From Candidatus Omnitrophota bacterium (GTDB lineage Bacteria > Omnitrophota > Gorgyraeia > Aquiviventales > Aquiviventaceae), in contig JACQHS010000110.1 in assembly GCA_016198915.1 (NCBI GenBank), positions 1-40,971 of the forward strand: a stretch of DNA of 40,971 bases, read 5' to 3'. Made by a program: the position numbers and the translations under genes. Each line of letters opens with the position of its first letter. Within the stretch, counting starts at the first letter, position 1. Below the pieces are notes generated by a model. That model saw only the letters and a list, made by a program, of their open reading frames with translations. It ran no database searches and had not been told where the DNA came from. Positions 2,165-40,971 of the stretch are shown piece by piece.

Positions 2165-3571
2165 GTGCGTACCGGCATGAGCGTGAGCAGAAGCACCATG
2201 CGATGGGCCGTCATGTGCGGCCTGATTGTCGGAGTCTGCGGATGTTCCAGGGGTCGGACGGAGCTCGTGGTGATTACTGGGGAGACCTATGGGTCCGGGG
2301 TAGATGCGTTGGAGGTAGATGCGTTGGAGTTGAGCGAGCCGTCCGGCGCTGTGCCTGCTGCGACGTTCGTGCCGGTCGGTCCCGCCCCGGAAGCAGCAGG
2401 GCAGCCTGCAGGGCTGCCGCCTGAGGACGTCGAGGACTACGTGAAGGCCGCTCAACGGATGCTCAGAGAGGGGGACTTTGCGACAGCCTCCTTCTTACTC
2501 GAGGACGCGTTCAAGCTGGATCCCGATGCGCGCTCGGTGAGATCGCTGCAAGCGAAACTCGAAAAGGCGCAACGAGCGGCGCAGGAGCAGGCGCGCCGCG
2601 AGCTCATCAACGCGTATGAGCGCGAGGGCCGCCAGATCCTGAAGCAGGGAGACGAAGACCGCGCGCTGGCCTATTTCTACGCAGCGCAGGCGTTGGACCC
2701 CGCGAATCGCAAGATCTTCAATCGCATCCAGCAGGCAAACGCGACCTGGCAGAAGCGCAGGGCGCAGCAGCGCGAAGTGGAGTTTCAGAAGTCCCTGCGG
2801 ATAGCGAAGGCCGCGGCCGAGGGGACGCCGGAGGCCGAGTCGGAGCCAGGGAAGACCATCGAGAACGAAGCGGCTGTCCTCATGAGCGTGAGCGGAACGA
2901 GCGCTGGCACTTCGCAATCGGCCGCGGAGCCACAGCCGTCGCCTGAGGTATCCCAGCTGGTCGCTCAGCCGGCGCCCGTGGCAGAAGCCCCCGTGGCGCA
3001 GGTGGAGCCGGATGCGCCCGCCGAGGAGGCCGTGGCGGATCCGGCGCCTCCGCTCGCTCCGGCGACTTACGGGTACACAATCCAGCCGGAGGATGTCCTG
3101 CGCATCACAGTGTTTGAGGAGCCGGACCTCGCCACCCTGGCTCGGGTCACGGCTGCCGGGACGATTACCTTCCCCCTGCTGGGCCACATCGACGTCGCAC
3201 ACCTGGATGTGACGCAGGTGCAGGAGAAGCTCACCCGGCTGCTGGGCGAGGACTTCCTGGTGAATCCCCAGGTGCATGTGTTCATTGAGAGCTACCATCT
3301 GCAACACGTGTTCGTCACCGGTTCGGTGAATAAACCCGGCTCCTACCCGATTCCGACCGAGCGTCCGACCACGGTCATGGAGGCCGTTGCGTTGGCCGGG
3401 GGATTCAGCGAGGAGGCGGCGGTCAACAAGACCAAGATCATCCGGATCGGGGAGGGGAAGGAGCAGACCATTCAGGTGCGGGTGGACGACATCATCAAGA
3501 GGGGGGACAAGACAAAGGATGTCGTGGTGTACGCGAACGACATCGTCTTCGTCCCGGAGAGTTTCTTCTGA
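2165..3571 (+). CDS. OPX-family polysaccharide export lipoprotein (short Wza-like: Poly_export + one SLBB, no C-terminal helix)
   Basis: 'YTIQPEDVLRITVFEEPDL', 'VFVTGSVNKPGSYPIP' and 'TVMEAVALAGGFSEEA...DIVFVPESFF' are Poly_export/SLBB hallmarks. Lipobox-like 'LIVGVCGC' near the N-terminus. GTG 2165 lies 6 nt after RBS GGGAGGGA (2151-2158). Alternative starts are 2141, 2177 and 2198. Confidence 0.85.
   Translation: MRTGMSVSRSTMRWAVMCGLIVGVCGCSRGRTELVVITGETYGSGVDALEVDALELSEPSGAVPAATFVPVGPAPEAAGQPAGLPPEDVEDYVKAAQRMLREGDFATASFLLEDAFKLDPDARSVRSLQAKLEKAQRAAQEQARRELINAYEREGRQILKQGDEDRALAYFYAAQALDPANRKIFNRIQQANATWQKRRAQQREVEFQKSLRIAKAAAEGTPEAESEPGKTIENEAAVLMSVSGTSAGTSQSAAEPQPSPEVSQLVAQPAPVAEAPVAQVEPDAPAEEAVADPAPPLAPATYGYTIQPEDVLRITVFEEPDLATLARVTAAGTITFPLLGHIDVAHLDVTQVQEKLTRLLGEDFLVNPQVHVFIESYHLQHVFVTGSVNKPGSYPIPTERPTTVMEAVALAGGFSEEAAVNKTKIIRIGEGKEQTIQVRVDDIIKRGDKTKDVVVYANDIVFVPESFF
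2300..2329 (+). repeat. Perfect 15-bp tandem duplication (GTAGATGCGTTGGAG x2), in frame
   Basis: Bases 2300-2314 and 2315-2329 are identical. They encode VDALE-VDALE in the N-terminal linker of the OPX protein. Confidence 0.95.
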
Positions 3572-21968: not shown

Positions 21969-23918
21969 ATGAGGCAGCAGTTGGTGGTGGCGATGACGAT
22001 CGGCGGAATGGTCGGGGCCTTCTGCGGGGCCGTCGAGGCGGGCGTGTTCTTGGTGCGCATCTCGTGGGGTCCTCTGGATACGCACACGATCGCCAAGGCG
22101 ATGGTGCTCTATGGACTGCCCAACGCGATCATCGTTGGGTTCTGGGGACTGGTCGCGGGGCGAGGGATGGATCTCAGGACGTTTGAGATCAGGACGCTGG
22201 CGTTCAGTCTCCTGACTATGGGCTATCTGTTCGGAGGGTTGTACGTGAACCGGCTGTGGCTGCCTGAGATCACGAAACTTCCGAGCCTGGTTTTCACCGG
22301 ATCCTGGACCCTCGCATGGCTGGCCGGCGCCTGGGCGCTGCTGAAGCTCCGCACACGCCCGGGGCACCCGCCCCGCACCGATCTTGCCTGGATCGGCGCT
22401 CTGCGGATGGCGGCGATCGGACTCGCCGTTGTGGCGGGGCTGTCGTTCGTGCCTCCGCTCCTGGCGGGCAGGCCCACCCGAGCTGGTGGCGCGGCGCCGA
22501 CCGTGCTGGGGCCTGCCGGGCGCCCGAACGTCCTGCTCATCGTGATGGACACCACGCGAGCCGACCGTTTGTCTTCGTACGGATATCCGCGCAACACGAC
22601 CCCGCATCTGGACCGCTTCGCCCAAGAGGGGGTCCTGTTCGAACAGGCGAGCGCGACGGCCCCGTGGACCCTGCCGTCGCATGCGTCGCTGTTCACCGGG
22701 CTGTATGTGGCCCAGCATGGAGCGGACACGTCGCACCGACGGCTCGATGATCACCTGGTCACGCTGGCTGAGCTGCTCCGCGAGCAGGGCTATCAGACGG
22801 TTGGCTTCTCCAACAATGGAGCCGTCAGCGTGGCGATGAACTTTCAGCAAGGGTTTGAGGTGTTCGAAGAGTCGCGCTTTTTCAGGGGGCAGGCGTTTAG
22901 GCAGCTCGCAATCGTTCGGCTCTTGGACCGATTTCAACTCCCGCAGCGCGGGGGCAACGCGCACGCCGCAGAGACCAACAAGCGCATCAGGGCCTGGTTC
23001 GAGCGCCGCTATGACCGCCGTCGGCCGTTCTTCCTGTTCATCAACTACATGGAGCCGCATTTTTCCTATGAGCCGCCTGAGCCGTACCGCAGGCGGTTCC
23101 TCCGACTGCCGAACGAGGTGAGGCGATCGCTCCGGAGGGGGCATGCGGTGATCAAGAGTCCCCCGCCGGTCTCCCTGGACGAGCCGATACGCGAAACCCT
23201 CGGGGACCTCTACGATGGGGAGCTTGCGTATCTCGATATGCGGATCGGCGAGCTGTTGGACGAGTTCAGGGCGCGCAAGCTGCTGGACGACACCGTAGTG
23301 ATCGTGACGAGCGACCACGGCGAGAACATCGGCCATCACGAAATTCTGGGGCATCACGACTGTGTGTACGAGACCCTGCTGCATGTTCCGCTGATCATCC
23401 GGTATCCGAAGGCGCTGCCGGCCGGTGCGCGGGTTGGCCAGCCCGTCTCGCTGGTGGATGTGCTGCCGACGCTACTCGCACTGCTGGAGGTGAGGGCCCC
23501 CGCCCTCGAGGCGTCGCTGCCGGGCTACAGCTTCGTGGGGTCCGGCTTGGCGGTGCGGGAGGATCGGGTCATCCTGTCCGAGTACGAGATCGCACGTCTC
23601 GGGCCGCAGGGCGCCGGGGGGTCGGGACGGACGAATGCAACAGCGGATGCGACGGCGACGGCGAAGCTGAAGAGTCTACGTGAGGGCGCGCTCAAGTTCA
23701 TCCGGTCGCCAGACGGGCGGCATGAGCTCTATGACCTCGAGCGGGATCCGGCCGAGTCGCGCAACCTGATCGCAGAGTTGCCAGGGCAGGCGGCGGCGAT
23801 GGAGGCGAAGCTCGTGAGACACTTCAAGGCCCTGAAGCCGGTCGGCTCACCCGAGCCGGTGCCTGAGCTCGATGCGGTGACGCGCGAGCAGCTCAGAGCG
23901 CTTGGGTATCTTCATTGA
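21969..23918 (+). CDS. Membrane-anchored AP-superfamily (sulfatase-like) enzyme, Thr type, paralog 3 (close to paralog 1)
   Basis: 'NVLLIVMDTTRADRLSSYGY', 'APWTLPSHASLFTGLYV' (Thr codon 22668-22670) and 'VIVTSDHGENIGHHEILGH'. GAGGA at 21960-21964 precedes ATG 21969. Confidence 0.8.
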   Translation: MRQQLVVAMTIGGMVGAFCGAVEAGVFLVRISWGPLDTHTIAKAMVLYGLPNAIIVGFWGLVAGRGMDLRTFEIRTLAFSLLTMGYLFGGLYVNRLWLPEITKLPSLVFTGSWTLAWLAGAWALLKLRTRPGHPPRTDLAWIGALRMAAIGLAVVAGLSFVPPLLAGRPTRAGGAAPTVLGPAGRPNVLLIVMDTTRADRLSSYGYPRNTTPHLDRFAQEGVLFEQASATAPWTLPSHASLFTGLYVAQHGADTSHRRLDDHLVTLAELLREQGYQTVGFSNNGAVSVAMNFQQGFEVFEESRFFRGQAFRQLAIVRLLDRFQLPQRGGNAHAAETNKRIRAWFERRYDRRRPFFLFINYMEPHFSYEPPEPYRRRFLRLPNEVRRSLRRGHAVIKSPPPVSLDEPIRETLGDLYDGELAYLDMRIGELLDEFRARKLLDDTVVIVTSDHGENIGHHEILGHHDCVYETLLHVPLIIRYPKALPAGARVGQPVSLVDVLPTLLALLEVRAPALEASLPGYSFVGSGLAVREDRVILSEYEIARLGPQGAGGSGRTNATADATATAKLKSLREGALKFIRSPDGRHELYDLERDPAESRNLIAELPGQAAAMEAKLVRHFKALKPVGSPEPVPELDAVTREQLRALGYLH

Positions 23919-23929
23919 GGAAACCACTG

Positions 23930-26900
23930 ATGGTAGCTGAGCGTATCCGAGGAGCGGCAAGCGAAGTCGCAGGGATCTCCGCGAGGCCTCTGCGGCTCGT
24001 GATGATGGCGCTGGTCTGCGCGTTGGTGAGCATCGGGTTCGGCGGCGACTCGAGCGCGGCTTTGGCGGTTCAGGATGCGCTTACCAATGGTGGGTTCGAA
24101 CATCCCGAGGACGGTGCGCAGAGCCCGGAGGGCTGGGAAGTTGGGGGGCGGACGGAGCGCGTCGAGTCCTCCGCGGATGGTGGGGGGGCATGGGCGTTGC
24201 GGCTGTCCTCCACAACGGAGGAGCCGAATCCGAGGGCGTCGCAATCGCTGGACGTTGTCCAGCCGCTTGCGACGGCGGTCACGGTGGCGGGCCTGGTGAG
24301 GATCAAGGATGTGCATCCCATCGGTGACGGGAAGGGCGCCGCCAAGGTCACCGTCAGCTTCTTGTCGGTGGATGGCCGCGTGATCCGTCGCAAGACGATC
24401 CGAACATGGGATGGCACGTTCGGCTGGCGCCCGTGGTCCGGCTCCGTGCGCATCCCGAAGGGCGCCGGCCGGCTTGAGCTCGCGCTCGAGCTGGAGGAGG
24501 CCCTGGGACAGGCCACATTCGATGCCGTGCAGCTGCTGTGGGGCCTGCCGGACGACCATGACCGCGAGAACCTCGTCGTCGATGGCGGGTTCGAGTATGT
24601 GAACCCCCTGTCGGTCTGGGAACTGGATCAGGGAGCGAAAGTGGTGTATCCCGGCGCCGAAGGCCATGCCGCATTGGAGATTTCACGGGACCAACCCGGG
24701 CACGCTGCCGCCCGTCAGCGGCTCGTGTTCGCTGAGGCGTCGATCCGGGAGGCGACACTCACGTTTGACCTCAAGCTGAAGAAGGTCAAGGCACGAGCGC
24801 CCGGGGGAGGCGCGAAGGTGGAGCTGGGCTTCTGGGATCGTGAAGGCGAGCCCGTGGGGAAGCCGGTTGTGGTGGGTCCATGGGCAGGGACACAGGAGAC
24901 TTGGAAGTCGCGCGCCAAACAAGTGCGGGTTCCGCCTGCGGCAAGCGAGGCGACGCTGGGTCTGTTGCTGGATCAGGCGCGCGGAACGGCCTGGTTCGAT
25001 GGGGTGCGGCTGGCGGCGCACGGGGCCGAGGGGCCGCTGGTGCGTCGTCTGGAGTCCCGAACGGACATCGCGACCTGGAGAGTCATTGAGCCCAGCATCG
25101 GACCCTTGGAGCCGCCGTTTGATGCGAGCGGGTTGCTCAATCCGCCCGCGGGGCAGCACGGATTCCTGACCGTGGAGGACGGCCGTTTTGTCTTCGAGGA
25201 CGGGACACCCGCGCGCTTCTTCGGCGTCAATATTGACGCGGCCGCCAACTTCCCGAGCCATGAGCACGCTGACCGCTTCGCCGAGCGGCTGGCGCAGCTT
25301 GGGTGCAACCTCGTGCGGCTGCATCATCTGGATGCCCCGTGGGCCGACCCCAACATCTTCGCTGCCGAATTCGAGGACACCCAGCATCTCTCGCGCGAGA
25401 GCCTGGACCGGCTTGACTACTTCATCGCGCAGCTCAAGGCGCGGGGGATCTACATCTACATGGATCTGTTGGTCAGCCGCCAGTTCAAGTCCGGGGATGG
25501 CGTGCCGGCCTACCGGCAGCTCTCGCGAGGGGCGAAGATCGCCGCCCAGTACAGCCCGCGGCTGATTCAGCTGCAGAAGGCGTATGCGCGCGATCTGCTC
25601 ACCCACTATAACCGGTACACGCGGACGCGGCTGGTCGAGGAGCCGGCGCTCGTCCTGGTTGACCTGATCAACGAGAGTTCGCTCGCGGCTGACTCGAAGC
25701 GGTTCAAGGAGCTCCCAGGGCCCTACCGCGATGAGCTGCAGCTGCTCTGGGGGGAATATCTGTCCGGTCAGGGCGTGGATCGCGCCACGATGGACGCGGA
25801 GCGCTATCTTGAAGTCGACGATCCGTTCGTGCAGGGATTCTACACGAACCTCCAGCAGCGCTACTTTGACGAGCTGTACGGCTACCTCCGCGGGCTCGGG
25901 CTTTCGATTCCGATTGCGGGAAGCAACCGCAGCACCCTGTCGCTGAGGACCTGGGAGCTTGCGACCAACGCCACACTGGATTTCATTGATCGGCATGACT
26001 ACTGGGACCATCCGAAGGGCGGGTACGGGGACCTGGTGCGATTCCACAATCGCTCGATGATCGAAGGCGGCCAGGAGCACCATCCGATCGCCAAGCTGAG
26101 TGTACAGCGTGTGGCGGGCGTGCCGTTCGTGGTGAGCGAGTGGAACATCCCCTGGCCCAATGAGTACCGGGCGGTCGGTCCCCTCCTCATGGCGGCCTAT
26201 GCCTCATTTCAGAATTGGGACGGCCTACTCCTCTTCACCTACGATGGGGATCTCGCCGCCACGCGAATCGCGAATAACTTTGATGTCAGTACAATGCCGG
26301 AGCAGTTCCTGCAGCTTCCAGCCGCAGCTCGGCTCTTCCACCGCCGAGAGGTCCAGCCGGCGCGTCTCACTCGCGCGTATCCCATCGACGCAGAGCACCA
26401 GAGCATCAGCCCGGGGCTTCCGCTTCGGCACGGTGTAGCGCGCGTTGCGGGGGATGCCGCACCACCCAAAGCGCTGGCCATGGCGAGCAACCCCTGGGTG
26501 AGCGATACCGGCGAGCTGGCCTGGGATGAACGGCACGGGCGCGTCTCGATCAAGACGGCTCGTGTACAAGCCGTTGTCGGACAGATGGGGGACGGACCGC
26601 TGTCGCTTCCTGATGCGACGTTCTCGGTGGAGACGCCTTTTGCCTCCGTGGTGCTCTCGAGCCTGGATGAGCAGCCGGTCGTGAGCTCGCGGCACCTGTT
26701 GCTGACGACGGTCGCGCGATCGGAGAACACCGGGACGGTCTATAACGCGACGCGGACGCTGCTGCGGGACAGCGGCACGGGCCCTATCCTCATGGAGCCG
26801 GTGATGGGCTCCGTATCCATGCCGCTGGGCGGGCGTCGACCGACCGGGGTGTTTGCGCTGGATACCACTGGACGCCGGGTGAGCGAGGTGGCGGCTTCCG

Positions 26901-26974
26901 TGCGTGAGGGCTCGATCGAGGTGCCGCTGGGCGAAGCCCTCGCCTATGAAATCGTGTTTGAGGAGCCCTCATGA
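23930..26974 (+). CDS. Secreted multidomain glycoside hydrolase (two CBM-like modules + clan GH-A TIM-barrel-like domain)
   Basis: Signal peptide 'LRLVMMALVCALVSIGFGGDSSAALA'. Two 'NGGFE'/'DGGFE' jelly-roll-type modules. 'GFLTVEDGRFVFEDGTPARFFGVN...LGCNLVRLHHLD', 'LINESS' (candidate acid/base NE) and 'FVVSEWN' (candidate nucleophile). ATG 23930 lies 8 nt after GAGGA. The track start 23915 is a TTG. Confidence 0.65.
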   Translation: MVAERIRGAASEVAGISARPLRLVMMALVCALVSIGFGGDSSAALAVQDALTNGGFEHPEDGAQSPEGWEVGGRTERVESSADGGGAWALRLSSTTEEPNPRASQSLDVVQPLATAVTVAGLVRIKDVHPIGDGKGAAKVTVSFLSVDGRVIRRKTIRTWDGTFGWRPWSGSVRIPKGAGRLELALELEEALGQATFDAVQLLWGLPDDHDRENLVVDGGFEYVNPLSVWELDQGAKVVYPGAEGHAALEISRDQPGHAAARQRLVFAEASIREATLTFDLKLKKVKARAPGGGAKVELGFWDREGEPVGKPVVVGPWAGTQETWKSRAKQVRVPPAASEATLGLLLDQARGTAWFDGVRLAAHGAEGPLVRRLESRTDIATWRVIEPSIGPLEPPFDASGLLNPPAGQHGFLTVEDGRFVFEDGTPARFFGVNIDAAANFPSHEHADRFAERLAQLGCNLVRLHHLDAPWADPNIFAAEFEDTQHLSRESLDRLDYFIAQLKARGIYIYMDLLVSRQFKSGDGVPAYRQLSRGAKIAAQYSPRLIQLQKAYARDLLTHYNRYTRTRLVEEPALVLVDLINESSLAADSKRFKELPGPYRDELQLLWGEYLSGQGVDRATMDAERYLEVDDPFVQGFYTNLQQRYFDELYGYLRGLGLSIPIAGSNRSTLSLRTWELATNATLDFIDRHDYWDHPKGGYGDLVRFHNRSMIEGGQEHHPIAKLSVQRVAGVPFVVSEWNIPWPNEYRAVGPLLMAAYASFQNWDGLLLFTYDGDLAATRIANNFDVSTMPEQFLQLPAAARLFHRREVQPARLTRAYPIDAEHQSISPGLPLRHGVARVAGDAAPPKALAMASNPWVSDTGELAWDERHGRVSIKTARVQAVVGQMGDGPLSLPDATFSVETPFASVVLSSLDEQPVVSSRHLLLTTVARSENTGTVYNATRTLLRDSGTGPILMEPVMGSVSMPLGGRRPTGVFALDTTGRRVSEVAASVREGSIEVPLGEALAYEIVFEEPS

Positions 26975-28422
26975 TCAAACGCTCAGAGGTGTTCGTCAAA
27001 CAGCTCGTGCTGCTAATCGATCTGGCGGTTCTGGTGGTGGCGTTTCTCGCCACCTATGCCCTCCGACAGTCGGTTCAGACGTTCTATCTGCTGGACCTCA
27101 TTCCCGGCCGCGAGGCGATCGGCGAGCTCTATCCGCTGGATCGCTACCTCTGGTTGTTGCTGATCATCCTGCCGCTCTGGATTGGCATACTCTACGCGCT
27201 GGGCGGCTACCGGGAGCTTCGCAACAAATCGTACCGTCAGATTGCGGCGGTGGTGCTGAAGGCCTGCGCGTTGGGACTGCTGTTCTTCGGCTCCTTCGTC
27301 TTTGTCTTGAAGCTCCATTATGTCAGCCGACTCTTCATGGGGATGTTTTTCCTGCTCAGCTTCCTGCTGCTGGCGTACGAGCGGACGGTCGTGATCGTGT
27401 GTTTCCATCTCATGCTGCAGCGGGGGTACTTCCATCGGAATCTCCTCCTAGTGGGGACGGGCCGGCGCGCCCGCGCGGTCATCAAGGATATCCAGGGCCA
27501 CCAGAACTGGGGGGTCGGGTTTGTCGGACTCCTCGATGCCGATCCGGGCATGGTGGAGCAGCACGTGGAGGGTGTCGAGGTCATCGGCACCCTGGAGGAG
27601 CTGCCCCGCATGCTGCAGGAGCGCGTCATCGATGAGGTGGTCTTCGTCGTACCGCGGACCTGGATGGCCAGGATTGAGGAAGCGATCCGCGCCTGCGAGC
27701 TGGCGGGTGTGCGGGCCTCGGTGGCGGTGGATCTGTTCAACATGCGCTTTGCCAAATCGCATCCCTCCGCCCTCAATGGCACGCCGTTCATCAGCTTCGA
27801 TACGACGTCGACGGATCAATGGCAGGTCGCGCTCAAGCGCGTGCTCGACGTGGTGATCGCGGGCCTCGGCCTCGTGGTCCTGTTGCCGCTGTTTGTGGTG
27901 GTCAGCCTGCTGATCAAGGCGACCTCCTCGGGCCCCGTGCTGTTCCAGCAGGTGCGGTGCGGGCTCAACGGTCGTCGGTTTACCCTCTACAAGTTCCGCT
28001 CAATGGTCATGGATGCGGAGGCGAAGCGAGCGGAACTGGCGCACCTGAACGAGCTCAACGGCCCGGTCTTCAAGCTGACCAACGATCCGCGCCTGACGCC
28101 GGTCGGCCGCTGGCTGCGGAAGATGAGCCTCGACGAGTTGCCTCAGCTGTACAACGTCTTCAAGGGGGAGATGAGCCTGGTGGGACCGCGACCGCCCATC
28201 CCGGGCGAGGTGGAGCAGTATCAAGCCTGGCAGCGCAGGCGGCTCAGCATGCGACCGGGGATCACCGGCCAATGGCAGGTGAACGGCCGCAATCATATCG
28301 TGGACTTTGACAAATGGATGCGGCTGGACCTCGAGTACATCGATCGGTGGTCTCTGGCGCTCGATGTGAAGATTCTGGCCAAGACGATCCCGGCGGTGTT
28401 CTTCGGGGTCGGGGCCAAATAG
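26971..28422 (+). CDS. Polyprenyl-phosphate sugar phosphotransferase (WbaP-type priming enzyme, bacterial sugar transferase family)
   Basis: N-terminal TMs plus a central Rossmann-like region. 'RVLDVVIAGLGLVVLLPLFVV', 'GPVLFQQVRCGLNGRRFTLYKFRSM', 'DELPQLYNVFKGEMSLVGPRPP' and 'RPGITGQWQV'. Confidence 0.9.
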   Translation: MIKRSEVFVKQLVLLIDLAVLVVAFLATYALRQSVQTFYLLDLIPGREAIGELYPLDRYLWLLLIILPLWIGILYALGGYRELRNKSYRQIAAVVLKACALGLLFFGSFVFVLKLHYVSRLFMGMFFLLSFLLLAYERTVVIVCFHLMLQRGYFHRNLLLVGTGRRARAVIKDIQGHQNWGVGFVGLLDADPGMVEQHVEGVEVIGTLEELPRMLQERVIDEVVFVVPRTWMARIEEAIRACELAGVRASVAVDLFNMRFAKSHPSALNGTPFISFDTTSTDQWQVALKRVLDVVIAGLGLVVLLPLFVVVSLLIKATSSGPVLFQQVRCGLNGRRFTLYKFRSMVMDAEAKRAELAHLNELNGPVFKLTNDPRLTPVGRWLRKMSLDELPQLYNVFKGEMSLVGPRPPIPGEVEQYQAWQRRRLSMRPGITGQWQVNGRNHIVDFDKWMRLDLEYIDRWSLALDVKILAKTIPAVFFGVGAK

Positions 28423-37286: not shown

Positions 37287-37600
37287 ATGGCGAAGACCGC
37301 GTCTGTCAGGACATCGCCGCTCGTGTTTGGGAGTCCGATGATCGAGGAGCCGGAGATCGCGGAGGTCGTGGTGGACGGCCGGACAGGCTACCTGGTCCCG
37401 GAGCATGACGTCGAAGGGCTGGGAGACCGCATTGCGCGATTGGCGGAGAACCCCGAGCAGCACCGGGCCTTCGCCCGGGCGGCGCGAGAACACGTCCGCC
37501 GGTCGGGTCGTACCACTTGGATGACACCATGGGGCAGTTGGAGGCACTCTATGACACGGTTTGCGAGGACCTTGGGACTCGCTCATCGCGGAAGCCCTGA
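37287..37600 (+). pseudogene. 3' relic of a GT4 glycosyltransferase, internally frameshifted
   Basis: The frame of 37287 reads 'EVVVDGRTGYLVPEHDVEGLGDRIARLAENPEQHRAFARAAREHVRR' (the usual GT4 C-terminus). The expected continuation 'YHLDDTMGQLEALYDTVCEDLGTRSSRKP*' is in another frame (37511-37600). No GT4 N-terminal half lies upstream. Confidence 0.6.
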
Positions 37601-38285
37601 CGTGGCCGAGAGGCACGTGCAGGCACGTGCCGGGCATGAGGCTGCGCTCCGCAGGCAGGAGAGAGGATTGCTGTATGCCAGCTGCCTACTCTTTACCGTG
37701 TGGACGGTCTATTTGTACGTCTCCGGCTCGCCACTCCTTAAGACGTTGTGTGAGGAAGATGGCCTGGTTGAGAACCTCACGGCGCTGTTCTATGTCATCG
37801 CGGGGCTGATCTTTCTCCTTGCAGCAACACAGTCCGGCCTGAAAGCCTCGGTGTGGTATTGGGGCTTCGGGTTACTCTTCCTCTTTATCGCCGGTGAGGA
37901 GATCAGCTGGGGGCAGCGGCTCTTGGGTTTCTCGACACCTTCAGCGCTGATCGAGAAGAATGTCCAGCGTGAGGTCACCCTCCACAACCTTCAGGGATTC
38001 CAGGGGAGCAGTCGAGGGATTGGGGTGCTGCTCTTCTCGGCCGTGTGTTTCCTCATCCCACTGACGAACCGATTCAGCCACGCGCTGCGACGGTGGTACG
38101 GGACGCTCAGGATGCCCATCTATCCGTTATGGGCTGTCGGCGTCACAGCGTTGGGGATCCTGTTCATGGCGATCCCCAGATTGATGTTCCCTGAGCCGGT
38201 CGCTGAGTTGGATGAGATCGGGGAGCTCTACCTGCCAGTGGGTTTCCTCGTCTTTGCCTACACGGAGTACATCCGAGCGCGCTAA
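37287..38285 (+). CDS. Hypothetical polytopic membrane protein; the ORF as drawn is chimeric (GT4 relic codons + ~6-TM body)
   Basis: TM segments 'LLYASCLLFTVWTVYLYV', 'LTALFYVIAGLIFLLAA', 'VWYWGFGLLFLFIAGEEISWGQ', 'GIGVLLFSAVCFLIPL', 'LWAVGVTALGILFMAIP' and 'LYLPVGFLVFAY'. The true start may be internal (ATG 37521 or 37551). Two 60-nt lines I counted (37681-37800) are about 52% and 58% G+C, visibly below the rest of the locus. Confidence 0.5.
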   Translation: MAKTASVRTSPLVFGSPMIEEPEIAEVVVDGRTGYLVPEHDVEGLGDRIARLAENPEQHRAFARAAREHVRRSGRTTWMTPWGSWRHSMTRFARTLGLAHRGSPDVAERHVQARAGHEAALRRQERGLLYASCLLFTVWTVYLYVSGSPLLKTLCEEDGLVENLTALFYVIAGLIFLLAATQSGLKASVWYWGFGLLFLFIAGEEISWGQRLLGFSTPSALIEKNVQREVTLHNLQGFQGSSRGIGVLLFSAVCFLIPLTNRFSHALRRWYGTLRMPIYPLWAVGVTALGILFMAIPRLMFPEPVAELDEIGELYLPVGFLVFAYTEYIRAR

Positions 38286-38413
38286 GTTCTTGGGCGCTCC
38301 CGGCCGCCTCAGTGGGAGACCGCGCCCTCTGTGACCCGCCGGTACTGACACCTCGGCTCAGGCTGGACGGAACTATCACGTGATATTTGTGAGGATATTT
38401 TTGCCTCCCGCCC

Positions 38414-38443
38414 TTGTCAGTCTCCACGGCGATCAGGCATACT
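38414..38443 (+). promoter_or_regulatory. Candidate sigma70-type promoter for the leader and beta-helix gene
   Basis: -35 TTGTCA (38414-38419), 18-bp spacer, -10 CATACT (38438-38443). Lies in the least GC-rich part of the window. Confidence 0.25.
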
Positions 38444-38492
38444 TTCGGTGCACGATCGTAGGTTGACAATCAGCAGGACGGATTGACCCTCC

Positions 38493-38591
38493 CAGCGGCG
38501 TGAGGCCGCTGCAGGAGAGGCGCCCCGCGAAGATGGGGCGCGAGGTGCTGCGGCACCTGTGAGGCTGGATCCCGCGGCAACGCGGCGGGAT
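38493..38591 (+). promoter_or_regulatory. Candidate structured RNA leader (four consecutive GC hairpins), class unknown
   Basis: H1 38493-38511 (CAGCGGC/GCCGCTG, 5-nt loop). H2 38520-38541 (GCGCCCC/GGGGCGC, 8-nt loop). H3 38543-38558 (AGGTGC-TGCG-GCACCT). H4 38572-38585 (CCGCG-GCAA-CGCGG, GNRA loop), with an alternative register ATCCCGC/GCGGGAT at 38569-38591. Confidence 0.4.
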
Positions 38592-38612
38592 TAGCAGACT
38601 TCGACACGGATT

Positions 38613-38650
38613 GCCGGGCTACCGGAGAACGGTAGCCCGGCTTTTATTTT
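38613..38650 (+). terminator. Rho-independent terminator / attenuator hairpin
   Basis: Perfect 11-bp stem GCCGGGCTACC (38613-38623) / GGTAGCCCGGC (38631-38641), 7-nt loop, then TTTTATTTT (38642-38650). It lies 30 nt upstream of ATG 38681. Confidence 0.8.
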
Positions 38651-38680
38651 CTGCCGCCCGGAGCAGGGAGGGACGAAGCC

Positions 38681-40971
38681 ATGTCGTTCGCGGAGCGTGT
38701 TGGGGCCCGGGTCGTGCGGTTTGGGTGGCTGATCGCCGCTGCCGGGTGTCTCTTGGCGCAGGGAGCGCCTCTGGCAGTCGCGGCTGAGTTTCGGACGACG
38801 GAACCCGCCGTCAGCCTCTACGCCAATTATGAAACGGTCAGTGTCTACGGGACCTACTTCGGCGATGCCAATGGCGATAGCACAGCCCGCTTTGAGTACA
38901 AGGAAGCGACGGCCAGCGCGTGGCGGCCCGGCATGGCGATGCACAAGCTGGGTGAGGAGAGCCGGTTTGCCGCCTTCTTCTTTGCCCAACCCGACGTCAC
39001 CTACGATGTGAAAATCACCTTCACCGATCCCGACGGCGTGACCGGGACCAACCCCGCGCAGGCCGCCGTGACGACCCGCAGCGATGTCGTCCCCGCCGGA
39101 TCAGGCACGACCTACCACGTCTCGCCTGACGGCAGCGACTCCAATCCCGGCACGGAGGCCGAGCCGCTGCGCAACATCTACACCGCCGCGTCACTGGTGT
39201 CCGCAGGGGACACCGTCCTGGTCCATCCCGGCACCTACGGGGGCCGCGTGAAAGTGTACAACAAGGTTGGCACATCCTCCGACTGGATCACCTTCCAGGC
39301 CGTGGGCGATGCGCCGGTTATTCTGGACGGCTCAGACACCGCCCTGCTTTCCACCGGACAGAATCGGTGGGCGCTGCATCAGGGATCGGTGTACAAGACG
39401 CCCTATTCGAGCACCCCGCAGGAGTACGTGGCGATTGACGGGATCCGGGCCTACCATTACCCGACCCTCAACGACCTGATCGCGGGATTCCAAGGCATTC
39501 CGGCCGGCTGGGTGCACGAAAGCGGCCAGCTCTATGTCCGCACCGTGGACGGCTCGGATCCGGATGACCATGTAATTCAGGTGTCCAAGACCGCGCACGG
39601 CTTCGAGCTGGACAACGCGCACTACATCAGGATCACAGGCTTCACCATCCAGTACTACGGCAAGGCGGCCATCCGTCTCAATGGGGGGGAGACGAATATC
39701 CTCATCGAAGACAACACCCTGCAGAACAACGGCTACGGGGTGCACAAGGGGGGCACGGGTGGCAGCCGGTTCACGATCCAGCGCAACACGATCACCGATA
39801 CCGGGGTAGCGACCTGGCCCTGGGACAAGGTGAAGAAAACCGTGCACGAAGCCGGCGGCATCCAGCTCTTTGCCATAGACCGGGGGGCGGTGGTTCGGGA
39901 CAACACGATCAGCGGCTTTTTTGACGGGGTGCAGATCAACCACTGGCCGCCGGAGCTGGGCTACAACTTCGATTCCGATGTCTACCGCAACACCATCAGC
40001 GATATCCGAGATGATGGGATCGAGTTTGAGTCCTCCAACGAGACGAATCTGCGGTTCTGGGAGAACCGCATGGAGCGCAACTATGTGGCGATGTCGGTCA
40101 ATCCTGTGCTGCGCGGGCCGGTGTATCTCTTCCGGAACACGGTGGTTGACGCGATCTCCGAGGGCTTCAAGGTGGGCTCGGCGGGGGCCACCACGTCTGG
40201 GATTGAATCCGTCGGCGCGGTGTATGCCTACCACAACACGATCCACGCCATTGACGATGTGGGCAATGACGACGACGGCGTCCAGTGCACGAACGGACCC
40301 AGCTACCAGAACCACACGTATCGGAACAACATCTTCTACGTCGGGCGGTATGTCGTCACAAACGAGGGCTGCCAGTCGACCGGCACGACCTACGACTACG
40401 ATCTCATGTATACGAAGGACTCCTCACGATTCGTGAAATGGGACAATTCAGTCCGCTACGGGAGCCTGGCGGAGTTCCAGACCGCGACCGGCCAAGCCCT
40501 GCATGCGATCAGTGCCGCGCCACAGTTCGAGGACCTCGCGGCAGGCGATCTGCGGCTCACGGCCACGAGTCCAGGCCTCGATGCCGGGACCGTGTTGGTC
40601 GGGTTTAACGATGCGACCTCCCCCTGGCCCTATACGGGCAGCCTCCCCGATCTGGGCGCGGCTGAGGTCGGGGGCGCACAGCCGGCCAACCAGCCGCCGG
40701 TCTTGGCGGCAATTGACAATCGGGTGGTGAGCATCGGTGAGAGCCTGACGGTCGTCGTGAGCGCGTCCGATCCTGATGGCGATGCGCTGACCTACAGTGT
40801 CCTCAACGCCCCGGCCGGGAGCACGTTCACCGGACAGACCTTGAGCTGGACGCCCACGGCGGGGCAGGCAGGGACCTACCAGGTGACGTTCAGCGTCTCG
40901 GATGGCACGTTGAGCGACGCCGAAACAATCACCGTGACGGTGCAGGACGCCGCGGCCGCCAACCAGCCCCC
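38681..40971 (+). CDS. Secreted right-handed parallel beta-helix protein (pectate-lyase-fold, DUF1565-type N-terminus) with C-terminal cadherin/He_PIG-like Ig repeats; 3' end outside the window
   Basis: I translated this frame codon by codon from ATG 38681 (RBS GGGAGGGA 38666-38673) to the window end and found no stop in 763 codons. Signal peptide 'FGWLIAAAGCLLAQGAPLAVAA'. 'YHVSPDGSDSNPGTEAEPLRNIYTAASLVSAGDTVLVHPGTY' plus repeated 'N-T-I/NN' rungs. 'NQPPVLAAIDNRVVSIGESLTVVVSASDPDGDALTYSV...TVTV' from 40688. Not in the supplied ORF track. Confidence 0.85.
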   Translation, partial: MSFAERVGARVVRFGWLIAAAGCLLAQGAPLAVAAEFRTTEPAVSLYANYETVSVYGTYFGDANGDSTARFEYKEATASAWRPGMAMHKLGEESRFAAFFFAQPDVTYDVKITFTDPDGVTGTNPAQAAVTTRSDVVPAGSGTTYHVSPDGSDSNPGTEAEPLRNIYTAASLVSAGDTVLVHPGTYGGRVKVYNKVGTSSDWITFQAVGDAPVILDGSDTALLSTGQNRWALHQGSVYKTPYSSTPQEYVAIDGIRAYHYPTLNDLIAGFQGIPAGWVHESGQLYVRTVDGSDPDDHVIQVSKTAHGFELDNAHYIRITGFTIQYYGKAAIRLNGGETNILIEDNTLQNNGYGVHKGGTGGSRFTIQRNTITDTGVATWPWDKVKKTVHEAGGIQLFAIDRGAVVRDNTISGFFDGVQINHWPPELGYNFDSDVYRNTISDIRDDGIEFESSNETNLRFWENRMERNYVAMSVNPVLRGPVYLFRNTVVDAISEGFKVGSAGATTSGIESVGAVYAYHNTIHAIDDVGNDDDGVQCTNGPSYQNHTYRNNIFYVGRYVVTNEGCQSTGTTYDYDLMYTKDSSRFVKWDNSVRYGSLAEFQTATGQALHAISAAPQFEDLAAGDLRLTATSPGLDAGTVLVGFNDATSPWPYTGSLPDLGAAEVGGAQPANQPPVLAAIDNRVVSIGESLTVVVSASDPDGDALTYSVLNAPAGSTFTGQTLSWTPTAGQAGTYQVTFSVSDGTLSDAETITVTVQDAAAANQP

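What the first reader, a model, noticed from the sequence alone, without database searches (positions are those of the whole stretch)
38681..40971. A 763-codon open reading frame missing from the supplied ORF track: secreted beta-helix protein with Ig-like repeats
Reading frame 2 from ATG 38681 to the last base contains no stop codon; I checked every codon. The track lists only short alternative-frame and antisense ORFs here, presumably because the frame has no stop inside the window. The product has a signal peptide and an Ig/Fn3-like module. It also has the 'YHVSPDGSDSNPG...AGDTVLVHPGTY' entry typical of right-handed beta-helix polysaccharide lyases/depolymerases, many 'NT/NN' rungs, and at least one He_PIG/cadherin-like repeat beginning 'NQPPV' at 40688, with a second 'NQP' starting at 40961. 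Located directly after the EPS operon and behind a structured leader, it may be a regulated EPS depolymerase/epimerase or a surface adhesin.
Basis: seen in the sequence. Interest (0 to 1): 0.6.

Follow-up and report, generated by a model that had tools for sequence, protein, structure and literature searches.

The report
Truncated secreted beta-helix glycanase-like gene
The open frame is a real gene, cut off by the end of the contig, for a secreted enzyme of the sugar-chain-cutting type; it lies beside a slime-polysaccharide gene cluster in an uncultured Omnitrophota bacterium, which is an ordinary arrangement, but this enzyme family has never been characterised.

Summary
Frame 38681-40969 has 763 codons and no stop, and it runs off the contig; the window is the whole contig. 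Full-length orthologues (53-65% identity) have 955-988 residues, so about 200 C-terminal residues are missing.

The product has these parts:
- a signal peptide;
- an Ig/Fn3-like beta-sandwich;
- a DUF1565-type cap;
- an inserted beta-sandwich;
- a right-handed beta-helix;
- a He_PIG repeat, with a second one starting at the contig end.

A family profile matches the GH120 xylosidase XylC (E 1e-25). The AlphaFold2 core model (pLDDT 85) finds XylC first. All 50 listed PDB matches of the core model are glycan-cleaving enzymes.

Both GH120 catalytic residues are replaced. The family keeps its own invariant set instead: WPWxxVKxxxxE, DDGxExE and GFK497xG. It is therefore an uncharacterised relative, not a GH120 member. 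Hydrolase versus lyase chemistry is undecided. The C5-epimerase motif is absent, and an adhesin role is poorly supported.

Three of five loci lie next to the same EPS cluster type. All five carry a promoter and a terminator-containing leader in front of the gene.

Most likely it is a conditionally expressed, secreted EPS-trimming glycanase. It is a modestly interesting new variant of a known kind.

The parts
38414..38443 (+). sigma-70-like promoter TTGTCA-18-CATACT
   Evidence: Consensus scan, (0.0 expected in shuffles). The block CTTGTC...CAGGCATACT is conserved in L003 and L005, with a weaker version in L021 and L004.
38450..38652 (+). structured leader of about 200 nt ending in an intrinsic terminator (stem-loop 38613-38641 plus T-run to about 38650)
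   Evidence: Terminator scan. Fold z = -5.2. A terminator hairpin plus T-run lies before the orthologous gene in L005 (same stem, different loop), L021 and L004, with a weaker hairpin in L003. No Rfam family matches at gathering score or at E<=10.
38666..38673 (+). ribosome-binding site GGGAGGGA, 7 nt before the ATG
   Evidence: Read from the sequence.
38681..40969 (+). 3'-truncated coding sequence, 763 codons (2 further bases to 40971)
   Evidence: Orthologues P0002 (988 aa), P0003 (983 aa) and P0004 (955 aa) are collinear from residue 17 onwards.
38681..38782 (+). signal peptide, residues 1-34, with predicted cleavage AVA|AE
   Evidence: Sequence inspection. The AxA site is conserved in orthologues. 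This segment is a low-confidence helix in the model. Inferred, no predictor was run.
38795..39073 (+). N-terminal Ig/Fn3-like beta-sandwich, residues 39-131
   Evidence: AlphaFold2 gives six strands (DSSP) at pLDDT about 90. No Pfam hit. Present in all 12 family members aligned.
39089..39328 (+). beta-helix N-terminal cap of DUF1565/Pel9A type (YHVSPDGSDSNPG...AGDTVLVHPGTY), residues 137-216
   Evidence: Pfam DUF1565 and Pel9A-like. PDB sequence hits to XylC, PL9, PL6 and GH136 caps.
39353..39586 (+). beta-sandwich inserted in the helix, residues about 225-302, equivalent to XylC residues 76-200
   Evidence: The profile alignment to 3vst runs through the insert. Strands are present in the models. 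The XylC domain limits come from PMC3507262.
39587..40465 (+). right-handed parallel beta-helix rungs, residues 303-595
   Evidence: Pfam Beta_helix 307-469, NosD and para_beta_helix. The models show regular three-strand rungs.
39815..39850 (+). conserved loop WPWDKVKKTVHE (W379, W381, K385, E390)
   Evidence: K385 and E390 are invariant and W379 nearly invariant in the 12-sequence alignment. Kept in 12-13 of 20 wider relatives.
40010..40030 (+). acidic cluster D444-D445-G-I-E448-F-E450, a candidate catalytic or metal site
   Evidence: Invariant and kept in 15 of 20 sequences. E448 aligns with XylC Glu353, a -1 subsite ligand.
40163..40177 (+). GFK497VG motif, a candidate general base
   Evidence: K497 is invariant. 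HMMER aligns it with GFKLGG of Pel9A at chain index 248. Pel9A's catalytic base is Lys273 (PMC10992409). The +25 numbering offset is my inference.
40466..40666 (+). C-terminal cap of the helix (…GDLRLTATSPGLDAG…PDLGAAE), residues 596-662
   Evidence: Conserved in the family. It aligns with the C-terminal ends of Pel9A and of 9rx2.
40688..40951 (+). He_PIG/Big_9 Ig-like repeat 1, residues 670-757
   Evidence: Pfam Big_9 1.5e-12 and He_PIG 1e-9. Model pLDDT about 90.
40961..40969 (+). first three codons (NQP) of a second He_PIG repeat, cut by the contig end
   Evidence: P0004 has two such repeats, each opening with N(H/Q)PPVL.

Best explanation
The frame is a real gene, truncated at its 3' end. 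It encodes a Sec-exported, multi-domain carbohydrate-active enzyme of an uncharacterised beta-helix family distantly related to GH120.

Transcription starts at the gene's own sigma-70-like promoter. It must read through an intrinsic terminator in a roughly 200-nt structured leader, so expression is conditional (inferred).

After the signal peptide is removed, an Ig/Fn3-like domain and a beta-sandwich inserted in the helix flank a groove on the beta-helix. Invariant charged residues sit on successive rungs of that groove: D444, D445, E448, E450, R458, R485, K497 and H518, plus the loop W379/W381/K385/E390. This is the same site as the XylC active centre.

I infer that these residues cleave a polysaccharide chain. 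The chemistry would be either acid/base hydrolysis or metal-assisted beta-elimination with Lys497 as base. Which of the two applies is open.

The He_PIG repeats, followed in orthologues by CHU_C/FlgD_ig-like domains, act as a stalk or anchor that keeps the enzyme at the cell surface (inferred).

The most probable substrate is the exopolysaccharide made by the adjacent Wzx/Wzy cluster. The enzyme would then trim or release matrix polymer, as WceF does in Pantoea and RbmB does in Vibrio.

My sub-confidences are: real secreted beta-helix protein 0.95; glycan-cleaving enzyme about 0.7; own EPS as the substrate about 0.4.
For: Gene reality. The frame is open, with coding GC3 and an RBS. Orthologues reach E = 0.

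Homology. The 12-sequence family profile hits XylC/GH120 (3vst) at E 1.1e-25 over profile positions 138-554 and chain residues 2-462, including the inserted sandwich.

Fold. The core model has pLDDT 85 and pTM 0.88. Its Foldseek order is XylC 4.7e-15, then BT_1002, Pel9A, the GH136 lacto-N-biosidases, the K1 capsule lyase, the PL9 RG lyase, GH110, PL6 and the VPS lyase RbmB. All 50 listed matches are glycan-cleaving enzymes. The full model gives the same top order.

Active-site location. E448 aligns with XylC Glu353, a -1 subsite ligand. The invariant cluster is kept in 15 of 20 relatives down to about 30% identity.

Conserved core, variable tail. Relatives end in He_PIG plus FlgD_ig, CarboxypepD_reg, Flg_new_2, SdrD_B plus Dockerin_1, Kelch, or nothing.

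Export. There is a signal peptide, and the two mature-chain Cys residues (536, 564) are invariant in close orthologues.

Context. The window is a complete Wzx/Wzy-type EPS locus: Wza, Wzc, Wzy_C, Wzx, an EPS_sugtrans priming enzyme above cut-off, and more than eight glycosyltransferases. L003 and L005 place the orthologue beside the same priming-enzyme lineage at 80-81% identity.

Regulation. A promoter and a terminator-containing leader precede the gene in all five loci.
Against: No activity data exist for any member. All source names are generic.

Both GH120 catalytic residues are lost. Asp382 aligns with N474, a variable column, and Glu405 aligns with G499. Catalysis is therefore inferred from a different, untested residue set.

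TM-scores to solved enzymes are only 0.36-0.51.

Their clustering is argued from rung register only.

Two of five loci (L004, L021) have no EPS genes nearby. None of 40 related Omnitrophota genomes has the helix core. The tie to this EPS is therefore loose.

The C-terminal ~200 residues are unknown.
Confidence: 0.55

Rival explanations
1. It is the same kind of secreted beta-helix glycanase or lyase, but aimed at foreign glycans: the capsule, wall or matrix of a host or prey cell, or an environmental polysaccharide. Its position next to the EPS cluster would then be incidental.
For: Orthologous loci L004 and L021 carry the leader plus the gene in unrelated neighbourhoods. The gene is absent from 40 related genomes, so it behaves as an accessory gene. 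One relative carries a dockerin, which is typical of secreted degradative enzymes. Omnitrophota have small genomes of 0.7-2.2 Mb. From my own knowledge, not tested here, they have been proposed to depend on hosts.
Against: The three closest loci (at least 64% identity) all sit within or beside the same EPS cluster type. No uptake or catabolic genes for released sugars are seen beside it in the window.
Confidence: 0.25
2. It is a non-catalytic surface adhesin or matrix scaffold. The beta-helix would act as a rigid lectin-like binding module and the Ig repeats as a stalk.
For: He_PIG/cadherin-like repeats are typical of adhesins. Other giant He_PIG proteins occur in this bin and its relatives. 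The beta-helix adhesin PfbA appears among fold matches at rank 36, E 9.5e-4. The GH120 catalytic pair is absent.
Against: The Ig tail is the variable part and is missing in several members of about 650 aa, while the helix is conserved. The helix carries an invariant cluster of Asp, Glu, Lys, Arg and His at the canonical active-site position. All closer fold matches are enzymes.
Confidence: 0.1
3. It is a polymer-level modifying enzyme that does not cut the chain, for example a C5-epimerase of AlgG/AlgE type acting on uronic acids in the EPS.
For: The fold class is the same. AlgE6 and AlgG appear at Foldseek E 1.8e-3 and 3.4e-3. The locus has a WecG-family transferase and the bin has two UDPG_MGDP_dh genes, so uronic acids may be present.
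Against: There is no DPH[DE] motif anywhere in the protein. The epimerases rank about 40 places below the hydrolases and lyases.
Confidence: 0.05

Closest known systems
GH120 beta-xylosidase XylC of Thermoanaerobacterium saccharolyticum (PDB 3vst; PMC3507262)
   Same: It is the best sequence-profile match (E 1e-25) and the best fold match. It shares the DUF1565-type cap, an Ig-like beta-sandwich inserted after the cap, the beta-helix, and an active-site rung with a shared Glu (XylC Glu353 = E448).
   Different: The nucleophile Asp382 and the acid/base Glu405 are both replaced: N474 in a variable column, and G499. Identity is 16%. XylC is a tetramer (PMC3507262) and, to my knowledge, cytoplasmic; it has no N-terminal Ig domain or He_PIG tail. 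This protein is exported and modular.
PL9 pectate lyase Pel9A (PDB 1ru4) and PL9 rhamnogalacturonan lyase (5olq)
   Same: The cap motif, the C-terminal cap (…SP.ID.G…G.APDLGA.E) and a GFK(L/V)G motif align. Pel9A uses Lys273 as base and Asp ligands for Ca2+ (PMC10992409). The family has the DDGxE pattern and an invariant Lys.
   Different: The Pfam Pel9A-like model matches only the cap (3-53 of 370). The central rungs do not align. In this family the acidic cluster lies about one rung further from the Lys than in Pel9A, by my residue counting. The Ca2+-ligand equivalence is not established.
WceF of Pantoea stewartii (PMC7949094)
   Same: It is a beta-helix glycan hydrolase encoded inside a Wzx/Wzy-type EPS cluster that cleaves the cell's own EPS. 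This is the functional model proposed here.
   Different: WceF is a tailspike-like trimer. There is no detectable sequence relation, and it is not among the listed fold matches. It has a different domain set.
RbmB of Vibrio cholerae (PDB 9ozl; PMC11637428, PMC12993940)
   Same: It is a beta-helix polysaccharide lyase that cleaves the Vibrio matrix polysaccharide VPS. It is a Foldseek match at E 4.7e-5.
   Different: It is much smaller (about 360 residues), with no Ig modules and no sequence similarity. Its lyase chemistry is proven, whereas here the chemistry is undecided.
BT_1002 of Bacteroides thetaiotaomicron (PDB 5mqp); by my recollection the founding GH141 member
   Same: It is the second-best fold match (E 6.5e-11) and shares the cap motif.
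   Different: Sequence similarity is confined to the cap (profile positions 137-211). Catalytic residues were not compared.

Membership tests
Pectin-lyase-fold / right-handed parallel beta-helix (Pfam Beta_helix, DUF1565 cap) | Match to the Beta_helix and DUF1565 models above their curated cut-offs | tested here: met
   Beta_helix 50.6 bits against cut-off 25.9. DUF1565 35.6 against 20.3. Pel9A-like cap 30.1 against 25.2.
Pectin-lyase-fold / right-handed parallel beta-helix (Pfam Beta_helix, DUF1565 cap) | Three-strand rungs stacked into a helix in a structural model | tested here: met
   AlphaFold2 core model with pLDDT 85 and pTM 0.88, showing a regular strand pattern. All Foldseek matches are beta-helix proteins.
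GH120 (XylC) | Overall homology including the beta-sandwich inserted after the cap | tested here: met
   Profile E 1.1e-25, aligned through XylC residues 2-462. Domain limits are from PMC3507262.
GH120 (XylC) | Catalytic nucleophile Asp382 | tested here: not met
   It aligns with N474. That column holds N, A, D and V across the family.
GH120 (XylC) | General acid/base Glu405 | tested here: not met
   It aligns with G499. That column holds G, S, D, N and K across the family.
PL9 (Pel9A) | Catalytic base Lys273 in a GFKLGG context | tested here: inconclusive
   The family's GFK497VG aligns with GFKLGG at chain index 248 in a weak HMMER domain (i-E 0.015). Equating index 248 with Lys273 assumes a 25-residue signal peptide, which I did not verify.
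PL9 (Pel9A) | Ca2+ ligands Asp209, Asp233 and Asp237 | tested here: inconclusive
   The D444-D445-x-x-E448 pattern exists, but the Pel9A region that holds the ligands is not covered by any alignment.
PL9 (Pel9A) | Full-length match to the Pfam Pel9A-like_beta_helix model | tested here: not met
   Only model positions 3-53 of 370 match.
Mannuronan C5-epimerases (AlgG / AlgE A-module) | DPH(D/E) catalytic motif (defining motif taken from my own knowledge) | tested here: not met
   A regex search finds none. Fold matches are only E 1.8e-3 and 3.4e-3.
He_PIG / Big_9 bacterial Ig-like repeats | Match above the curated cut-off | tested here: met
   Big_9 48.7 bits against 23.6 and He_PIG 39.2 against 24, at residues 670-754.
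Phage tailspike depolymerases | Sequence relatives in phage genomes | tested here: not met
   tblastn against 50,697 phage records finds only the 51-residue cap in one Bacillus phage 'pectate lyase'. No relative was found in the viral-contig scan. BFVD fold matches (best 1e-10) are weaker than XylC.
Phage tailspike depolymerases | Homotrimer with a particle-binding N-terminal domain | not testable with these tools
   No multimer prediction is available. The N-terminus here is a signal peptide followed by an Ig-like domain.
EPS-cluster-encoded matrix glycanases (WceF/RbmB type; a functional class, not a sequence family) | Encoded in or beside the EPS biosynthesis cluster | tested here: met
   True for the window and for L003 and L005. 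Not true for L004 and L021.
EPS-cluster-encoded matrix glycanases (WceF/RbmB type; a functional class, not a sequence family) | Cleaves the cell's own EPS | not testable with these tools
   This needs a biochemical assay.

The most novel reading that the evidence does not exclude
The N-Ig plus beta-helix core defines a new carbohydrate-active enzyme family. The family descends from the GH120/PL9 stock but has rebuilt its active centre as DDGxExE plus WPWxxVKxxxxE plus GFKxG. It travels as a self-contained cassette together with an undescribed terminator-type riboregulator. In that case Omnitrophota and other uncultured bacteria would switch a matrix-cutting enzyme on and off with an unknown signal.
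Probability: 0.35. Interest if true: 0.5.

Novelty: new variant of a known kind. Interest (0 to 1): 0.35.

Why it matters
Self-produced glycanases encoded next to EPS clusters set matrix chain length and control dispersal. Few are characterised, and none in Omnitrophota, a widespread uncultured phylum of very small cells. This gene offers a defined candidate. It has testable residues (D445, E448, K497, E390), a naturally tail-less orthologue for expression (P0048), and a conserved regulatory leader. If it is active, it would add a new specificity or family to the beta-helix CAZymes. It would also give a handle on how these bacteria remodel their envelope polymer. For annotation, it shows that the longest gene of the locus end was missed only because it runs off the contig.

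Tried and rejected
1. Recovering the 3' end failed. No contig of the bin overlaps the window end.

2. Searching the representatives library with the whole protein was a poor choice. The He_PIG repeat swamped the 150 listed hits, and only about 14 of them cover the helix.

3. The genome-contig scan and the metagenome scan are pattern-limited. They added only one new locus, L021, which is identical to L020.

4. Forty related genomes have He_PIG matches only.

5. GH120 membership is rejected because the catalytic residues are replaced.

6. The epimerase reading is rejected.

7. A phage origin is rejected.

8. A known riboswitch in the leader was not found. There is no Rfam hit at gathering score. 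No GEMM or c-di-GMP family appears even at E<=10 in the leaders of the window, L005 and L021.

9. The Kribbella 'PKD domain' proteins (about 25% identity over 92-97% of the core) lack the DDGxE and Lys signature. They are not good proxies for this family.

10. I could not map the invariant residues in 3D, because model coordinates are not exposed to the Python box.
Full report
**Observation.** Translating 38681-40971 gives 763 residues without a stop. The ORF listing reports the frame as 3'-open when open-ended frames are allowed. The window is the whole contig C87 of a 1.0-Mb, 147-contig, roughly 71%-complete bin, so the cut is an assembly end. GC3 is 0.82, like the neighbouring genes. GGGAGGGA precedes the ATG by 7 nt. 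Only 15 open codons lie upstream. At this base composition an open run of 763 codons has a chance of roughly 1e-9 (my arithmetic). SufB on contig C22 of the bin is 95% identical to proteins named Candidatus Omnitrophota.

**Anatomy.**
- Pfam finds the DUF1565 and Pel9A-like cap at 137-187, Beta_helix at 307-469, and Big_9/He_PIG/Cadherin_5 at 670-754. NCBIfam adds only generic repeat models.
- AlphaFold2 on a 12-sequence family alignment gives pLDDT 80 for the whole protein and 85 (pTM 0.88) for residues 136-662.
- The model shows a low-confidence signal helix (1-34), a six-strand (DSSP) Ig/Fn3-like sandwich (39-131) and a cap (about 137-216).
- It then shows a second small sandwich inserted in the helix (about 225-302), regular rungs to about 595, a C-terminal cap to about 662, a disordered linker and one Ig domain (671-756).
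- The mature chain has two cysteines, both invariant in close orthologues. This fits an exported protein.
- Full-length orthologues have 955-988 residues and end in He_PIG plus CHU_C/FlgD_ig-like domains, or in He_PIG x2 plus CarboxypepD_reg. About 200 residues are therefore missing here.

**Relatives.**
- The family is small and unnamed.
- Close members come from metagenome contigs (P0002 and P0003 at 64-65%, P0004 and P0048 at 53-55%).
- More distant members come from a Planctomycetota MAG and other uncultured sources.
- Every source name is generic.
- None of 40 genomes of the same family or class carries the helix core. They match only the He_PIG repeat.
- Across the family the N-terminal Ig domain plus helix is constant. 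The tail is exchanged: He_PIG/FlgD_ig, Flg_new_2, SdrD_B plus Dockerin_1, Kelch, or none.

**What the core resembles.**
- The single sequence matches solved structures only through the cap.
- The family profile matches the GH120 beta-xylosidase XylC at E 1.1e-25 across profile positions 138-554 and chain residues 2-462, which includes XylC's inserted Ig-like sandwich.
- Foldseek with either model puts XylC first (5.6e-16 and 4.7e-15). It is followed by BT_1002, Pel9A, the GH136 lacto-N-biosidases, the Klebsiella K1 capsule lyase, the PL9 rhamnogalacturonan lyase, GH110, PL6 and the Vibrio VPS lyase RbmB.
- All 50 listed matches of the core model are glycan-cleaving enzymes.
- The adhesin PfbA and the epimerases AlgE6 and AlgG appear only at E about 1e-3 to 3e-3 with the full model.
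- Phage proteins match more weakly (best 1e-10). Neither a viral-contig scan nor tblastn against 50,697 phage genomes finds a relative beyond the 51-residue cap.

**Active site.**
- XylC works with Asp382 as nucleophile and Glu405 as acid/base. Glu353 binds the -1 sugar (PMC3507262).
- In the HMMER alignment Glu353 falls on the family's invariant E448. Asp382 falls on N474, a variable column, and Glu405 on G499. The protein is therefore a homologue of GH120 but not a member in the catalytic sense.
- The family has its own invariant set:
  - W379-P-W381..V-K385....E390 in a loop;
  - R406 and N408, and D433 and N437;
  - D444-D445-G-x-E448-x-E450;
  - N456 and R458, R485, K497 in GFKxG, H518 and N519, and D572-Y573-D574.
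- This set is retained in 15 of 20 relatives down to about 30% identity.
- By rung register (strands), the acidic cluster, S472/N474 and K497 lie on three successive PB1 strands. This is the same stack that carries Glu353, Asp382 and Glu405 in XylC (inference).
- A weak HMMER domain (i-E 0.015) aligns GFK497VG with GFKLGG of Pel9A at chain index 248. Pel9A's base is Lys273 and its Ca2+ ligands are Asp209, Asp233 and Asp237 (PMC10992409). If the 400-residue chain lacks a 25-residue signal peptide, index 248 is Lys273. I did not verify that offset.
- The residues thus fit either a carboxylate-pair hydrolase or a metal-assisted lyase with a Lys base. I cannot decide between them.
- The locus has a WecG-family transferase, and the bin has two UDPG_MGDP_dh genes on contig C60. 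Uronic acids, the lyase substrates, are therefore possible but not shown.

**Context.**
- The window is one long plus-strand polysaccharide locus. It runs from a FecR-like gene and a BBP2_2 porin through Wza, Wzc, Wzy_C-TPR and Wzx.
- Next come GT2, GT9, GT1, WecG, a DCC1-like gene and two sulfatase-family enzymes.
- Then come an EPS_sugtrans priming enzyme (26971-28422; 420 bits against a cut-off of 296), DAO, GT4 and an SDR epimerase.
- It ends with LPG_synthase_TM, a hexapeptide transferase, two GT2 genes and a phosphodiesterase.
- In L003 the orthologue follows Phosphodiest, Bac_transf, LPG_synthase_TM, GT2, GT2 and PMT_2.
- In L005 it lies 1.5 kb after the end of a priming enzyme that is 81% identical to the window's.
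- In L004 and L021 the neighbours are unrelated.
- The link to this EPS cluster type therefore holds for the three closest loci only.

**Regulation.**
- A sigma-70-like promoter (38414-38443) and a 12-bp GC-rich hairpin plus T-run (38613-38650) lie between the operon end and the ATG. The leader folds far better than shuffles, z = -5.2.
- The promoter block and a terminator hairpin just before the start codon recur in L005 (identical stem, different loop), L021 and L004, and more weakly in L003. This holds whatever lies upstream.
- The conserved unit is therefore the leader plus the gene, and expression must depend on terminator read-through (inferred).
- No Rfam family matches, even at E<=10 in three of the leaders.
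My Rfam test did not reproduce a GEMM signal. That neither proves nor excludes the claim.

**Verdict.**
- The best-supported function is a conditionally expressed, exported polysaccharide-cleaving enzyme of an uncharacterised family related to GH120. It most probably trims the adjacent EPS, in the manner of WceF (PMC7949094) or RbmB (PMC11637428, PMC12993940).
- My confidence is about 0.7 for glycan cleavage and about 0.4 for own EPS as the substrate.
- Alternatives are a glycanase aimed at foreign glycans (0.25), a non-catalytic adhesin (0.1) and a non-cleaving modifier such as an epimerase (0.05).
- It is a new variant of a familiar kind of system and is of modest interest.

Noticed in passing
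window 38405-38655; L005 1725-1895; L021 2735-2950; L004 5765-5975; L003 9862-10085: The promoter and terminator-containing leader is conserved in front of every orthologue, regardless of what lies upstream. In the window and L005, 23 nt up to the loop and the 12-nt 3' arm of the stem are identical, although the proteins are only 65% identical. A GCTGCGGCA motif recurs in three of the leaders. No Rfam family matches, even at E<=10.
   Followed up: partly
L003 13053-14924 and L005 438-1667: A second secreted protein sits next to the beta-helix gene in both loci, downstream in L003 and upstream in L005. The two copies are 40% identical. It has a weak Pectate_lyase_4 match (E 3e-4, below cut-off), and the L003 copy ends in a He_PIG domain. 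No homologue of its core was found in the window or the bin. It may lie beyond the contig end.
   Followed up: partly
window 26971-28422: The priming glycosylphosphotransferase (TIGR03025 EPS_sugtrans, 420 bits, above cut-off) is hidden among overlapping alternative-frame ORFs. My first greedy ORF pick missed it.
   Followed up: yes
window 37287-38285: The last ORF of the operon matches only the final ~45-50 residues of the GT1/EpsE models (at its residues 24-73), and nothing matches after that.
   Followed up: partly
window 23915-26974: A 1019-residue ORF in the middle of the locus has no Pfam or NCBIfam hit at all.
   Followed up: no
G000 contigs C22 (1-1654, +), C91 (4400-3048, -) and C27 (3707-7543, +): Three other contigs of the bin begin or end inside genes that contain He_PIG repeats. 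These repeats appear to be what breaks the assembly, here as well.
   Followed up: partly
G000 contig C91, minus-strand ORF ending near base 3048: A He_PIG protein ends in ...[29 protein letters not shown].... By recollection this resembles a CFI-box-type C-terminal sorting motif. I did not test this against any model.
   Followed up: no
L003 9257-9700: The longer intergenic region in L003 contains what reads like the C-terminal part of an IS5-type DDE transposase (…GDKGYDSDPLRQTLRRLGIQP…RYRWVVERTISWLNRFRRLRIRYER…). I translated it by eye and did not check it with a model.
   Followed up: no
G000 contig C60, 7876-8427 and 13771-14301: There are two UDP-glucose/GDP-mannose dehydrogenase-family genes, so the organism can probably make uronic-acid sugar donors.
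   Followed up: no
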